Of a stretch of DNA of 64,000 bases, positions 1,059 to 60,392 are shown piece by piece. A program made the position numbers and the translations under genes. The notes below the pieces were generated by a model. It was not told the DNA's origin. It ran no database searches and worked only from the letters and a program-made list of their open reading frames with translations. Source of the stretch: the human T2T-CHM13v2.0 reference genome, Homo sapiens; assembly GCF_009914755.1 (NCBI RefSeq), contig NC_060933.1. One strand, 5' to 3'. The first letter of the stretch is position 1. Each line of letters starts with the position of its first letter.

Positions 1059-54357
<53,299 letters not shown>

Positions 54358-54435
54358 CTAGCTACGTTCCCCGCAGGCTGTGCCTCACTAGCTTTAAAGC
54401 CGGGTAGCAGGAGGGCGTGGCGAGCGGGGAAAGCA

Positions 54436-54445
54436 GGGATTTTCC
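54436..54445 (+). promoter_or_regulatory. NF-kB consensus site GGGATTTTCC
   Basis: Exact fit to GGGRNNYYCC. Confidence 0.5.
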
Positions 54446-54499
54446 GAGGAAATGAGGCCGGACGCGAGGCGGAGCTGCATAGGAACTTTAATAACTAAA

Positions 54500-54514
54500 G
54501 GGAAAATCGAAAGT
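54500..54514 (+). promoter_or_regulatory. IRF-binding element (GGGAAAATCGAAAGT)
   Basis: Matches IRF-E AANNGAAA(G/C)(T/C) ~160 bp upstream of the ATG; RIG-I is a well-known interferon/IRF-induced gene. Confidence 0.8.
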
Positions 54515-54561
54515 GCAACTAGCGGCGGGCGGGGTTCGCGGAGGCTGTTTTGCCTCGGGCT

Positions 54562-54574: not shown

Positions 54575-56261
54575 TCCGCACCGAGGAAGCCCGGGAACGG
54601 AGAGGACCCCTAGGAATTGCTTTTATTTTTATGATCTTATATTTTGTTTTGCTTTTATAGCGCTAACGTTTAGACACAGTAAAATGCACACAATCTGAGT
54701 GTGCAATTCGATGAGTTTTGTAAAGTGTACACCTGTGTACCCAGTTCTCCCACGTCGGCTGGGTGCCAGGGTAAGTCTATGTTTAGCTTTATAGGAAACC
54801 GCCACCTGTTGTCCAAAATGACTGATTACATCCAGTTTACATTCCCACCCGCAGTAGGAGAGCTCCAGTAGATAGACACATTGGTCAGCCTTTCTTTTTT
54901 TTTTTTAATTTTAACTTCCATCTTGGTCGGTGTGAAATGGTATATTATTGTGGTTTTAATTTTAATTTCCCATATAATTAATGGTGGGCACATTCGCATG
55001 TGCTTACTGGGTCATTCATATATCTTTTGTGAAGCATCTGCTCCAATCTTTTGCCTGACTTTGGAGTTTTTTGGTTTATGGATTTACAGGAGTTATTTAT
55101 TCAGGATACAAAATTGTTAAATATATGTATTCGAAATATCTTCTTCCAGTCTGTGGCTTACCATTTCATTTTCTTAAAGGTGTCTTTTGAGGAGCAGACA
55201 CTTATATTGATGCAATTTTCAGGTTTTTCTTCTGTTTGTTGTTTTTTGTGTCCTCTTTAATAAATCTTTGCCTACCCCAAGGTCATGAAAATATTGTTTC
55301 CTTTTAGATTTATATTTTTAGCCTTTACTTCTGGGTCTATTACTATCTCAAAATAATTTTGTTGTGGCGTGAGATGGGGGGTCCAGGTTCACTTTTTCCA
55401 TATTTCTAATTGTTTCAGCACCGTTTGTTGAAAACTTTTCCTTTTGGCATTGGATAGCCTTGGGACCTTTGTAAAAAAACCAAGTCCATTGAATGTATGT
55501 GTGTCTATTTCTGACTCTTGTTATATTCTACTTCCTACTACTTTGACAATACCATTGTCTCTAGGTTACTTTAGATTTCAACTAAGTCTCAAAATCAAGT
55601 ACTACTAAGTTCTCCAAATTTGTTTTTCACTGTGAAGATATTAGCTATTTGAGATTCTTTGCATTCCTTTTTTTTTTTTTTTTTAAATTTCTTTTTTGAG
55701 ACAAGGTCTCACTCTGTCTCCCAGGCTGGAGTGCAGTGGTGCAAACAGGGGTCACTGCAACCTTGAATCCCTGTGCATTTCCATATGAAATAAGAATCAA
55801 CTTGTCAATTACCCCTTCCTTCCCCCAAAAAAAGTTTATGGGGATTTTGATCAAGATTGCATTGAACCTACAGATAAACTTGGGGAGAAGTGACATCTTA
55901 ACAATATTGAGTCTTCTAATCCATAAGCATGGTATGCCTTTTCATTTACTTAGGTCTATAATTTCTCTCAGCAGTATTTTAGTTTTGTTTCATTTTATTT
56001 TACAGACGGAGTCTCACTATGTTGCCCAAGCTGGAGTGCAGTGGCTATTCACAGGCACAATTATAGTGTGCTACAGCCTTGAACTCTTGGGCTCAAGGGA
56101 TCCACCTGGACTCAAGCAATCCTCCTACCTCAGCCATCCAGAGTAGCTGGGACTACAGGCACGGGCCATCACACCTGGCTATTCTGAACTATTTTATGTT
56201 ATTTGATGCTACTGTCAATGGAATTGTTTTTAAGATTTCATTTTCAAATTGTCTGTTGCTA

Positions 56262-57037: not shown

Positions 57038-57820
57038 GTTTTACTTCTTTCTTTCCGGTCTTCATGCTTTTTGCCTCCTTTCTTTATTATGGTACCTCCT
57101 AGAGCCTCCTATAGAAAATAGAATAAAAGTGGTGACAGTTGACACCATTACTTTATTGCTAATTTCAGTGGGGAAATCATCAATGTAATAATAATCACTT
57201 TAAATAATATGGTAGCTGTAAATTTTTCTTAGATACCTTTTATCAGATTGATGAAGTTCTCTTTTATTCCTAGTTTGCTGAGTTTTTATAATGCATGGGT
57301 GTTGAATTTTTCAAATGTTTTTTCCTGCATTTATTGAGGTGATCATATATTCTGTTAACATACCAAATTTCACTGATCAATTTTTGAACGTTCACCCAAC
57401 CTACCATTCCTGGGATAAATCTCATTTGGTTTTAGATACAAAGGATGCTATATCATGACCAAATGAGTATTTTCATAAATACTTTTGTGTCTGTGTTCAT
57501 GAGGAATATTAGTCAATAATTTTATTTTCTTGTAATGTGTTTATCAGGTTTTGATATCAGAGTTATGCTAGTCTCATAAAGCAAGAGTTTGTTTCAGATT
57601 GGTATCATTTTCCCCTTAAATGTTTAACAGAATTCACTAATAAAACCATTTGGGCTTGACATTTTCCTTGTTTGAAGATTCTTTATAATGAATTCAATTT
57701 CTCAATTAGATATAAAGCTATTCTGACTTTTAATCTTTAATCAGTTTTGATAAATTGTGCTTCTCAAGTGTTAAAATAATTGGTAGGCCATTAGACTGAT
57801 GTAGCTGTAACACCCTCATG

Positions 57821-57834
57821 AGGAAAATGAAACT
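57821..57834 (+). promoter_or_regulatory. Consensus ISRE AGGAAAATGAAACT within LTR
   Basis: Exact match to RGGAAANNGAAACT. Confidence 0.55.
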
Positions 57835-58042
57835 TAGTTTAGCCAATCACAGTTGGCTAACTGGGACATTGGTTATATTGTCATAAATTTCTCACTTGGA
57901 TAGTCCAAATAAGGCAAACACTCAAACTTTAACCAATGAAACAATTTCTTTGCTCTGTGTCCCTTCAACCCCCTCTAACAGAGCCCCAAACCATTTCTGG
58001 TTTGTAGCTGCTTAATTTATGAATCACTGCTGGAACACCTTA

Positions 58043-58349
58043 ATTTTTTTTTTTTTTTTTTTTTTGAGACAGAGTCTCACTCTGTAGCCCAAGCTGGAGT
58101 GCAGTGGCACAATCTTGGCTCACTGCAGCCTTCACCTCTAGGGCTCAAGAGATTCTCCTGCCTCGGCCCCCAAGTAGCTGGGACTAGAGGCATGCGCCAT
58201 CACACCCAGTTAATTTTTTTGTATTTTTTTAGTAGAGACTGGGTTTCACCATGTTGCCTGGGTGGTCTCGAACTCCTGAGCTCAGGCAATCCACCCACCT
58301 TGGCCTCCCAAAGTGATGGGATTACAGGTGTGAGCCACCACGCCTGGCC
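58043..58349 (-). mobile_element. Alu nested in upstream LTR
   Basis: Antisense Alu. Confidence 0.9.
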
Positions 58350-60392
58350 AGCTTGAAATTTTAATGTGGAAAAGTTTATATTTTAACACAAGGAATTTGA
58401 TCATTTCCTCTAAATTGTTAAATGTATTGGCATATGGTGTTCGTGATAGACCTTATTATCTTTTTTGCCTTTTTAAAAAATCAGTCTTGCCAGGGATTTA
58501 CCAATTGCATCTTTTCAAAGAACAAACTTTTAATTCAATAATTTTATTTTTTTAAGAGACAGGGTTTTGCTGTGTCATCCAGTAAAATGGACTCCTTGGA
58601 TACACGTTAATCAAATATAACTTTAACCTCTTTTAGCTATAACTCTTTGTATTCTTTTAGCTATAGGTCTCTCTCCATACACACATACACATATATATTT
58701 GTATACACTCTACATATTATTTTATACGTGTGTGTGTGTGTATTTAGTGGTTGCACTAAGGATTATAATATGTATCCTCAACTTAATCTATTTAGAACTA
58801 ATATTGTACCACATTAGGTAAAATATAAGATCATCACAACCATGTAATTCCACCCCATCCTTTTTGCTATCATTGTCTGAAACTGTACTTCTATATGTTA
58901 TAAAATACATACTACAATAATACAATGTTATAAACCTTGTTATAGCTTGTTGTCTTTTAAGTAAAATAAGAAAAAAATTAGTTTTTGTTTTTCCATGCTG
59001 TTTGCTATTTCTGGTGCTATTCATTGCCTCTGGTAAACACTGGTTTCCAACTAATGTTATTTCACTTCTGTCTTCTCCAATTTGTTAAGGCTTCCAGTAA
59101 CTTTTTCATTTTAGGTTTGTTTTTTTTTTTTTTTTGTAGTTCCAGGATTTCCATTGTTTCTTTTTTCTACTTCTCATGTCTCAGCTGAGAACCACTATCT
59201 GTTCATTCATTAAACCATCTTTTCCTTTAAGTTCATACACATATTTCTAATAGTGTCTTTAAAGCCCTTGTCTGTGAATTCCATCTTGGAACCTGTTTTG
59301 GTGACGGCTTTTTCTCTTGACTATGGGTTCATTCACATGTCTAGTATTTTTTTTATACTGGATGCTATAGATGTATTATAGAATCTCTGGATTCTATTAT
59401 TTTACTCTCAAGAGTATTACTTTTTGTTCTAGCATTCCACTGAATTACCGATGAATTACTTTAAACTTACAAAGGCATTGTTTACACACTGTGGTAGGTC
59501 TGTTTCAAATTTTGCCCTTCTTGCAAGGTAAGTCCTTAGTCCTGAGTCATAGTCTTCCACAGTAAGCTGTGGCCCTGCATGTTCCAGTGAAAAGTCCTAC
59601 ATGTTTCTCAGCCCATCTAAGTTGGTGGGATTCAACCTCCAAGTTCTATATTCCCTGTGGTGGTGGCTGAAATGTATCTATTGAGCCCTTTTAGCTTTCC
59701 AGCTATTGCTTACATGGGCTTTTTGGAATCTTCCCTGCACATGTACATTTCAGGGTCAGGTAAAGATTTGAGTGAAAGTTATACAAAAATTTTAGGGCTT
59801 GTTTTCTGTGTCTACTTTCTGAAATTTCTCCCTCAAAATGCAGTCACTCGGGCAGCCCCAGGGTCCATCTTCTGACACAATGTCTGTGGCTCTCTGCTTG
59901 CATTCTAGTCTCCCTATGGACCGGGGATGACCCTCAGATGAAATGCCAAAGAAACTGTTCTTATACAGTGTCATCTCCGTCTTTCAAGGGTCTAATTCCC
60001 TCCAGTTTCTGCTTTTTGATTGCCCTCCAGTGGCTTCAAGTTCTTTATACCCTTATGTTTTGCCTATGTTTATAATTATTATCTCATGCAAGCTACTCTT
60101 CCAATACCTGGATTTGGGTTTTAGCTGAGAAAAAGAAATCAGATCCAAAATTCCTTTAAAAAGGTAAAGACATGCCTCCTTCTATGCTACTAGTGGGAAA
60201 TAATGTATTCCTGAATAACAACAGATTTAGAAAACATCAACAATTACAGTATAGATTATACCTGAAAGAACTGAAGGTCCAGAAATGGAATCATTTGACA
60301 GATTCATAGGTAAAATTTGACCAAGGCCAGGAAAGAAGGGGAGTGTCACAGAAGGATAAGATCACAGAAGGATTAGGTGATATCTTATCACC

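What the first reader, a model, noticed from the sequence alone, without database searches (positions are those of the whole stretch)
57769..58388. ERV solo LTR ~3.3 kb upstream of the promoter carries a perfect ISRE next to a CCAAT box
Seen: a cleanly bounded LTR (10-bp terminal IR, caag TSD) contains AGGAAAATGAAACT (57821-57834), an exact RGGAAANNGAAACT match. It is followed 7 bp later by agccaatca (NF-Y) and by more CCAAT motifs (57868 reverse, 57933). Established: ERV1 LTRs such as MER41 have been co-opted as interferon-inducible enhancers of innate immune genes. Inference: a retrovirus-derived enhancer may amplify the interferon feed-forward induction of RIG-I.
Basis: partly seen in the sequence, partly recalled or inferred. 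Interest (0 to 1): 0.7.

Follow-up and report, generated by a model that had tools for sequence, protein, structure and literature searches.

The report
Ancient solo LTR upstream of RIG-I
About 3.3 kb upstream of the RIG-I promoter lies a very old retroviral solo LTR that still carries an interferon-response motif inherited from its virus family, but nothing yet shows that the cell uses it.

Summary
Window 57769-58388 is a real solo LTR: TG...CA ends, a 10-nt terminal inverted repeat and a caag duplication on both sides. The same bounds recur in dispersed copies elsewhere in the genome. An Alu-type SINE splits it at 58044-58349.

A 4-bp target duplication recurs across copies, which points to ERV1-type integration. 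Divergence between copies puts the family at roughly 80-150 Myr, far older than MER41. I could not get its Dfam/Repbase name because no repeat library was on hand.

AGGAAAATGAAACT (57821-57834) is exact. It was not gained locally. An ISRE-like 12-mer sits 19-22 nt before the CCAAT box in 33 of 40 sampled copies: exact in 4, one mismatch in 15.

Enhancer function is untested. No RefSeq functional element overlaps the LTR. The published RIG-I IRF/ISRE elements are promoter-proximal, and those reporters reached only -2 kb.

One lead: 8 family copies genome-wide keep the exact ISRE plus CCAATCA, and two of them lie by interferon-stimulated genes, RIGI and HERC6. This is not statistically firm.

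Verdict: a new member of a known kind, of moderate-to-low interest.

The parts
57765..57768 (.). Left copy of the 4-bp target-site duplication (caag)
   Evidence: Read; identical to 58389-58392. The 4-bp length recurs in other copies.
57769..58043 (+). 5' part of the solo LTR (U3 and part of R). Starts TG. Sense on the + strand, so antisense to RIGI.
   Evidence: Copies elsewhere align from 57766-57769 onward. Orientation follows from the family's CCAAT boxes, TATAAA (21 of 40 copies) and AATAAA near the 3' end (26 of 40 copies).
57821..57834 (+). ISRE-like motif AGGAAAATGAAACT (core GAAAATGAAACT at 57823-57834)
   Evidence: The homologous 12-mer lies 19-22 nt before the box in 33 of 40 copies at 3 mismatches or fewer: 4 exact, 15 with one mismatch.
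57841..57849 (+). First CCAAT box (agccaatca; CCAAT at 57843-57847), a possible NF-Y site
   Evidence: CCAAT is present at the aligned site in 22 of 40 copies (my count from the printed boxes). NF-Y binding is inferred from the motif only.
57868..57872 (-). Reverse CCAAT (ATTGG on the + strand), mostly particular to this copy
   Evidence: In alignment A1 only 1 of 13 other rows (L013) reads ATTGG at this site.
57933..57937 (+). Second CCAAT box (taaccaatga)
   Evidence: CCAAT at the aligned site in 7 of 13 other rows of alignment A1 (my count).
58044..58349 (-). Nested SINE insertion (Alu, named from recall) with a 22-nt T run on the + strand; same strand as RIGI
   Evidence: It is the only soft-masked stretch here (58034-58354). 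27 other segments of 200 bp or more in the window are 73-83% identical to it.
58350..58388 (+). 3' part of the solo LTR (end of U5); ends CA
   Evidence: Copies align to 58352-58359 through 58388-58396 (row winB).
58389..58392 (.). Right copy of the 4-bp target-site duplication (caag)

Best explanation
This is an ancient solo LTR of an ERV1-type endogenous retrovirus. Recombination between the two LTRs of a provirus left it behind, and an Alu later split it. Its U3 region carried, as part of the virus family's own promoter, an IRF/ISRE-like site about 20 nt upstream of a CCAAT box.

The two bases at core positions 6-7 of the motif read mostly TG or CA across copies, the pattern expected from decay of a CpG. 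Copies reading TG, like this one, keep a perfect ISRE core, and copies reading CA lose it.

Shown: identity as an LTR, its bounds, the 4-bp duplication, great age, and family origin of the motif.

Inferred: today the copy is most likely a passive relic. At most it is a minor, redundant IRF/ISGF3-plus-NF-Y site. The interferon and IRF3 response of RIG-I is run by the promoter-proximal IRF-E and ISRE. As a promoter the LTR is dead, with no TATA-like box and no poly(A) signal.
For: Element:
- Ends, inverted repeat and duplication.
- About 30 places matched at 69-88% identity, with 220-578 first-look candidates when other copies were used as queries.
- Shared bounds across copies.

Class:
- Of 14 copies with both termini recognisable, 5 have a 4/4 flank match and 9 have at least 3/4. 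None has 5/5 or 6/6.

Solo status:
- No second copy in the window.
- No two of 136 listed places lie within 20 kb of each other.

Age:
- Half the mean pairwise K2P distance is 0.18-0.23 within length classes. That gives 83-103 Myr at 2.2e-9 per site per year and 121-152 Myr at 1.5e-9. The rates are recalled values.

Motif origin:
- 33 of 40 copies carry a 12-mer with 3 mismatches or fewer at the same distance from the box: 4 exact, 15 with one mismatch.
- Core positions 6-7 read TG 16, CA 8, TA 2, TT 2, CG 1 and four other dinucleotides once each.

Against a main role in RIG-I control:
- The proximal IRF-E and ISRE were defined by deletion, ChIP and EMSA (passages of PMC5035021).
- No RefSeq functional element overlaps the LTR, while the promoter is marked as an active region at 54270-54519.
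- The nearest genes of the first 40 sampled copies include no interferon-stimulated gene that I recognise.
Against: - The motif is a perfect 13-mer GGAAANNGAAACT next to a CCAAT box, only 3.3 kb from a strongly interferon-induced promoter. Such sites are sometimes bound.
- The published reporters stopped at -2 kb, so this region has not been tested.
- Of 8 family copies genome-wide that keep the exact ISRE core plus CCAATCA, two lie 3.4 and 4.4 kb from the start sites of RIGI and HERC6. HERC6 as an interferon-stimulated gene is my own knowledge. The window, the HERC6 copy and one copy near ATG10 share the identical 13-mer.
- A paper reports IRF3/p65-bound, STARR-active elements near DDX58, and another reports an enhancer in the DDX58 locus validated by CRISPRi. 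Their positions are in supplements or figures that I could not see.
Confidence: 0.6

Rival explanations
1. The LTR is a working, auxiliary interferon-inducible enhancer of RIG-I. ISGF3 or IRFs bind the ISRE, NF-Y binds the neighbouring CCAAT boxes, and the element adds to the promoter-proximal IRF-E/ISRE during feed-forward induction.
For: - Exact ISRE core and CCAAT box 6 nt apart.
- The LTR is 3.3 kb from the published start site. The IRF-E oligonucleotide printed in PMC5035021 maps to 54486-54519 on the - strand.
- The region lies outside the tested 2-kb reporters.
- Two of 8 module-intact family copies sit by RIGI and HERC6.
- Four other copies near start sites are decayed at the motif: FAM89A, SIGLECL1, DEFB104B and FUBP1.
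- The principle is established for MER41 (review passages).
Against: - No binding, accessibility or reporter evidence could be reached.
- No RefSeq functional element overlaps the LTR.
- The association with interferon-stimulated genes is weak. With the seed copy removed it is 1 of 7, and the census is partial and biased by how copies were found.
- A module-intact copy also lies by ATG10, and near-exact ones lie by PEX5L and RFPL4B.
- The CRISPRi-validated DDX58 enhancer was modelled as a separate bead in a 400-kb polymer model. That suggests it is distal, though its position is not given in the text I could read.
Confidence: 0.25
2. The LTR has a constitutive use unrelated to interferon, for example an NF-Y-bound basal enhancer or an upstream antisense promoter remnant, because it holds three CCAAT motifs.
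For: Three CCAAT motifs within 95 nt. Two of them are family-conserved: 22 of 40 copies at the first box and 7 of 13 at the second.
Against: - No TATAAA or AATAAA is left in this copy.
- No annotated transcript or functional element lies over it.
- CCAAT motifs are ordinary parts of retroviral U3 regions.
Confidence: 0.07
3. It is a young, primate-specific MER41-like LTR.
Against: - Half-pairwise divergence of 0.18-0.23 against 45-60 Myr stated for MER41.
- No TTCNNNGAA in the element.
- A direct sequence comparison failed for lack of a verified MER41 comparator.
Confidence: 0.02
4. It is not a repeat at all, and the terminal inverted repeat and caag flanks are a chance find in A+T-rich DNA.
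For: The LTR parts are not soft-masked in the RefSeq sequence.
Against: - Dozens of dispersed copies share the same ends.
- Another copy on chr9 is also unmasked, so the mask simply misses this old family.
Confidence: 0.01

Closest known systems
MER41 LTRs as interferon-inducible enhancers (for example MER41.AIM2), as described in the review PMC9963469 (passages read)
   Same: An ERV1-type solo LTR lying near an innate-immune gene and carrying an interferon-pathway transcription-factor motif that came with the family sequence.
   Different: - MER41 is given as 45-60 Myr and primate-specific. This family is about 80-150 Myr by divergence.
- The MER41 motif is a STAT1 site and the work used interferon gamma. 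Here the motif is an ISRE and there is no TTCNNNGAA.
- MER41.AIM2 lies 220 bp from its gene and was tested by knockout. This LTR lies 3.3 kb away and is untested.
Promoter-proximal IRF-E (-17/-5) and ISRE (-78/-64) of human RIG-I (PMC5035021, passages read)
   Same: IRF-type motifs upstream of the same gene. The printed IRF-E oligonucleotide maps to window 54486-54519 on the - strand.
   Different: These are host promoter elements, shown by deletion, ChIP and EMSA to drive induction. The LTR motif lies 3.3 kb further upstream, outside the 2-kb constructs, and derives from a retrovirus.
Lineage-specific transposon-derived interferon-inducible enhancers: mouse B2 SINEs (PMC10229128) and ruminant retrotransposons (PMC9435751). 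Search listings and abstracts only.
   Same: Repeats that spread interferon-pathway motifs and lie near immune genes.
   Different: Those families are young, lineage-specific and abundant, and have binding data. This family is old, probably shared among placental mammals, and only a few copies keep the motif exact: 4 of 40 sampled and 8 genome-wide with the box.

Membership tests
Retroviral LTR (solo LTR) | TG...CA termini forming a short inverted repeat | tested here: met
   (I6). The same start and end appear in other copies.
Retroviral LTR (solo LTR) | Target-site duplication of fixed short length directly flanking a single LTR | tested here: met
   caag on both sides. 4/4 flank matches in 5 of 14 copies with clean termini, and at least 3/4 in 9 of 14.
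Retroviral LTR (solo LTR) | Dispersed multi-copy family sharing the same bounds | tested here: met
   136 distinct places listed and 220-578 first-look candidates.
Retroviral LTR (solo LTR) | U3-R-U5 signals: TATA-like box and poly(A) signal in the expected order | tested here: inconclusive
   Family: TATAAA in 21 of 40 copies and AATAAA near the 3' end in 26 of 40. Neither is present in the window copy.
Retroviral LTR (solo LTR) | Pairs of LTRs flanking internal proviral sequence, with primer-binding site and polypurine tract | not tested
No LTR pairs within 20 kb among 136 places.
ERV1 (class I, gamma/epsilon-like) | 4-bp target-site duplication (5 bp for ERVL/MaLR, 6 bp for ERVK; established knowledge, recalled) | tested here: met
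   no copy with 5/5 or 6/6, and 5 of 14 with 4/4.
ERV1 (class I, gamma/epsilon-like) | Reverse-transcriptase or pol phylogeny of the internal region, or a match to a named Dfam/Repbase LTR | not testable with these tools
   No repeat library was on hand. A 17-nt string of a copy is in no held paper. Naming through inner genes is barred, so I stopped there.
MER41 | Primate-specific age (45-60 Myr) | tested here: not met
   Half-pairwise K2P of 0.18-0.23, or roughly 80-150 Myr.
MER41 | STAT1 (GAS) motif in the LTR | tested here: not met
   No TTCNNNGAA in 57769-58388.
MER41 | Sequence similarity to a MER41 LTR | tested here: inconclusive
   Two stretches upstream of AIM2 showed no family similarity: best E 0.065 for the first, and only Alu-flank hits for the second. 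I could not verify that either stretch holds MER41.
ISRE (interferon-stimulated response element) | Match to the core GAAANNGAAACT, extended GGAAANNGAAACT (motif recalled) | tested here: met
   57822-57834.
ISRE (interferon-stimulated response element) | Binding of ISGF3 or IRFs and interferon-induced activity | not testable with these tools
   No ChIP, ATAC or reporter data were reachable.
Transposon-derived interferon-inducible enhancer of a host gene | Inducible chromatin marks, contact with the promoter, and an effect on the gene's expression | not testable with these tools
   Only negative and weak: no RefSeq functional element over the LTR.

The most novel reading that the evidence does not exclude
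A retrovirus family that entered the genome around the time of the early placental mammals carried an IRF-responsive ISRE-plus-CCAAT promoter module. The handful of copies that still hold the module exactly would then have been retained because they were drawn into the core interferon network. These include the copies 3.4 kb upstream of RIGI and 4.4 kb inside HERC6. That would be retroviral wiring of antiviral genes far older and more widely shared than the primate-specific MER41 case.
Probability: 0.12. Interest if true: 0.65.

Novelty: new member of a known kind. Interest (0 to 1): 0.35.

Why it matters
RIG-I is a central sensor of viral RNA, and interferon itself induces it. If an ancient retroviral LTR added an ISRE to its upstream region, that would be retrovirus-derived wiring of the interferon system shared across placental mammals, not one confined to primates. 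The HERC6 copy would point to a small, old co-opted set.

If the LTR is inert, which I think more likely, the case is a useful caution. A perfect ISRE next to an interferon-stimulated gene can be a leftover of a viral promoter, kept by the direction in which a CpG happened to decay.

Tried and rejected
Family name. No Dfam or Repbase library is among the tools. A 17-nt string of one copy is in none of the held papers. None of the literature searches on DDX58/RIG-I with LTR, ISRE, enhancer, transposable element or RepeatMasker found a paper describing this LTR, and the search on HERC6 found none describing the HERC6 copy. Naming through inner genes is barred, so I stopped.

MER41 comparison. 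I fetched 1.27 kb upstream of the annotated AIM2 gene end (L041). I also fetched 3.5 kb around where I recalled the canonical AIM2 start to be (L042). Neither resembles the family: best E was 0.065, and the only real hits were Alu flanks. A genome search with L042:1150-2650 found only 3 candidate places. I therefore could not show that a MER41 LTR was in what I fetched, and the test is void.

Soft-masking as evidence against a repeat. Rejected, because another family copy on chr9 is also unmasked.

Enrichment near interferon-stimulated genes. Among the nearest genes of the first 40 copies I recognise none. Of 11 places within 5 kb of a protein-coding start site among 136, two are RIGI and HERC6. 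The census is partial, since only 40 of 220-578 candidates are scored per search. It is also biased, since three places came from the motif search. I treat the result as a lead only.

A looser pattern for module-intact copies returned only 4 places, all already known.

Position of the published DDX58 enhancer. The text refers to a figure panel and to Extended Data Table 2, which are not held.

Orthologous presence in other mammals. No other mammalian genome is reachable.
Full report
What is there. Window 57769-58388 begins tgttaaaata and ends tattttaaca. It has caag directly on both sides, at 57765-57768 and 58389-58392. The terminal inverted repeat is perfect over 10 nt of the element (pair I6, which reports 11 nt including one flanking base). 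Inside, 58044-58349 is a separate insertion. It starts with a 22-nt T run on the + strand and is the only soft-masked stretch here (58034-58354). It has 27 other relatives of 200 bp or more in the same 64-kb window at 73-83% identity. I call it an Alu from recall of what Alu looks like. The LTR proper is therefore 57769-58043 plus 58350-58388.

Is it a real repeat? Yes. A search of the reference with 57769-58033 gave 39 matching pieces at about 30 places, 69-88% identical. I fetched 20 of these with short flanks and compared them with the window. Wherever the ends are present, the similarity starts at 57766-57769 and stops at 58388-58392. Alignment A1 shows the same picture row by row. Searches with other copies as queries gave 220, 241, 287 and 578 first-look candidates, of which 40 were scored each time. 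The family, with at least two subfamilies, therefore has several hundred copies or more. The LTR parts are not soft-masked, but another chr9 copy is not either, so the mask says nothing here.

What kind of element? Full copies are about 340-400 bp long. Reading along the + strand of the window copy, copies carry two CCAAT boxes, a TATAAA (21 of 40 copies) and an AATAAA in the last fifth (26 of 40 copies). This is the U3-R-U5 layout of a retroviral LTR. It is oriented + in the window and so lies antisense to RIGI.

The flanks of the copies tell the class. Of 20 copies with both ends in reach, 14 have both termini recognisable. Of those 14, 5 show a perfect 4-bp duplication and 9 show at least 3 of 4. 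None shows 5 of 5 or 6 of 6. By established knowledge (recalled), 4 bp is the ERV1 length, 5 bp the ERVL/MaLR length and 6 bp the ERVK length.

The element is solo. Identical duplications flank a single LTR. No second copy lies in the window. Among 136 places listed by the searches, no two are within 20 kb of each other.

I could not name the family.

How old? I used no consensus. I took mean pairwise Kimura distances over the shared core of a MAFFT alignment of the window's 5' part with 40 copies, and halved them. All pairs gave a mean K2P of 0.456 and a median of 0.432 (locus L038 left out of the pairs; L026, which is truncated, inflates the mean slightly). Within length classes the halves are 0.18-0.23. 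That is 83-103 Myr at 2.2e-9 substitutions per site per year and 121-152 Myr at 1.5e-9. Both rates are recalled, and subfamily structure inflates the figures somewhat. The closest pair overall differs at 17% of sites, and the window's closest relative, L001, at 22%. The family therefore dates to about the time of the early placental mammals. It is far older than MER41, which is put at 45-60 Myr in the review passages. The nested Alu fits an old host element.

The motif. ATTGG is at 57868-57872 and CCAAT at 57933-57937. As a bare 12-mer the ISRE core is unremarkable: there are 2 matches in the window against 0.41 expected, and 7 of 100 shuffles reach 2.

The family explains its presence. In 33 of 40 copies a 12-mer with at most 3 mismatches to GAAANNGAAACT lies 19-22 nt before the aligned CCAAT box. 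It is exact in 4 copies (L001, L002, L007, L027), one mismatch off in 15, two off in 9 and three off in 5. The other 7 copies are truncated or replaced there. The A positions of the motif carry the window's base in 28-33 of 33 copies. The least shared positions are 57822 (10 of 33), 57823 (20), 57828 (20) and 57829 (19).

At core positions 6-7 the copies read TG 16, CA 8, TA 2, TT 2, CG 1 and four other dinucleotides once each. This is the spectrum that decay of a methylated CpG leaves. TG keeps the G that the motif needs, and CA destroys it. This copy is one of the minority that kept it.

One nuance concerns length forms. The family comes in three forms between the 5' block and the box: about 34-37, 64-66 and 82-92 nt. 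The window copy is of the short form, at 27 nt. Among the 7 short-form rows, only the window and L001 have G at the first core position. The perfect 5' half may therefore be particular to a small subgroup.

The first CCAAT box is present in 22 of 40 copies (my count). The second is present in 7 of 13 rows of A1. The reverse one at 57868 is present in only 1 of 13 and so is mostly local.

State of this copy. It has no TATAAA and no AATAAA. Alignment A1 shows a gap of about 24 nt where other copies have the TATA-like box. The Alu sits where other copies have the poly(A) signal region. It has no CpG left and no GAS motif. As a promoter it is dead, and only an enhancer-type role is conceivable.

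Does it act on RIG-I? I found no evidence either way that bears directly on it.
- The oligonucleotide printed for the RIG-I IRF-E maps to 54486-54519 on the - strand. It is 3.4 kb from the RefSeq 5' end at 54369.
- That paper (passages read) shows that the IRF-E at -17/-5 is essential and the ISRE at -78/-64 contributes. Deleting sites at -1323, -887 and -291 from a 2-kb reporter has little effect. The LTR lies beyond their constructs.
- RefSeq lists an active region over the promoter (54270-54519) and nothing over the LTR. This is weak negative evidence, since those sets come from few cell types without interferon.
- One paper reports IRF3/p65-bound, STARR-active elements near DDX58. Another reports a CRISPRi-validated enhancer in the DDX58 locus. 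Their positions are in closed supplements, a figure and a table. The polymer-model paper treats that enhancer as a point distinct from the promoter in a 400-kb model, which suggests it is distal.
- None of the six literature searches found a paper that mentions this LTR.

A lead from distribution. The pattern ISRE core, 5-10 nt, CCAATCA occurs 11 times in the reference, against 5 for the reversed control. Eight of the 11 are family copies: the window, L007, L027, and L043, L044, L045, L047 and L048. L046 is not a family copy, and two matches were not fetched.
- Two of the eight lie close to start sites of interferon-stimulated genes. The window copy is 3.4 kb from RIGI, and L044 is 4.4 kb inside HERC6. 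HERC6 as an interferon-stimulated gene is my own knowledge.
- The window, the HERC6 copy and a copy 4.9 kb from ATG10 share the same 13-mer GGAAAATGAAACT.
- Other copies within 5 kb of a start site are one mismatch off (RFPL4B, PEX5L) or decayed (FAM89A, SIGLECL1, DEFB104B, FUBP1).

This is what selective retention next to interferon-stimulated genes would look like. However, with the seed copy set aside it rests on one locus. The census covers 136 places of a family of many hundreds, three of which were found through the motif itself. With that many copies, one to three near such genes are expected by chance. I record it as a lead and not as a result.

Verdict. The element is an ancient ERV1-type solo LTR, and the ISRE-plus-CCAAT module is a piece of the retroviral U3 that this copy happens to have kept. 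The enhancer reading is possible but unsupported. I put it at about one in four, and I put the passive or redundant relic reading at about six in ten. It is a new member of a known kind, transposon-borne interferon motifs near immune genes. Its interest lies mainly in its age and in the RIGI/HERC6 coincidence.

Noticed in passing
window 52117-52128 (- strand, sense to RIGI): The only other exact GAAANNGAAACT in the window (GAAAGAGAAACT) lies in RIGI intron 1, about 2.3 kb downstream of the start site. It is not in a masked repeat of 100 bp or more.
   Followed up: no
window 54486-54519 (- strand) versus the RefSeq RIGI 5' end at 54369: The IRF-E oligonucleotide printed in PMC5035021 maps here, so that paper's start site is near 54496. 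That is about 125 bp upstream of the RefSeq mRNA 5' end. The RefSeq 'active region_28262' (54270-54519) covers both.
   Followed up: partly
window 55164-55173 and 56236-56245 (- strand): Two further GAAAATGAAA half-ISRE strings lie between the promoter and the LTR. The looser pattern GAAANNGAAA occurs 18 times in the window against 6.2 expected, and 0 of 100 shuffles reach 18. Many of the matches are A-rich runs.
   Followed up: no
G000 chr4:91,714,256-91,714,654 (L044): A family copy 4.4 kb inside HERC6, antisense to the gene, keeps the same 13-mer GGAAAATGAAACT and a CCAATCA box.
   Followed up: partly
G000 chr2:113,505,202 (L043) and chrX:125,630,923 (L027): These two copies still read CG at core positions 6-7 of the motif. 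L043 lies 11 kb from IL1F10, in the IL36/IL1 cluster.
   Followed up: no
G000 chr9:41.58, 43.26, 48.29, 48.47 and 79.44 Mb; chr20:25.89 and 26.04 Mb; chr17:23.02 Mb; chr7:57.92 and 58.05 Mb; chr12:37.55 Mb; chr22:17.44 Mb; chr19:39.71 Mb; chr8:7.21, 11.98 and 12.52 Mb: Groups of hits share the same query bounds and near-equal scores. They look like single old insertions multiplied by pericentromeric and 8p23 segmental duplications, and they would inflate copy counts.
   Followed up: no
L007, L010, L029, L036 (flanks of family copies): Several other copies of the LTR family also carry or abut Alu-type insertions, as expected for old elements.
   Followed up: no
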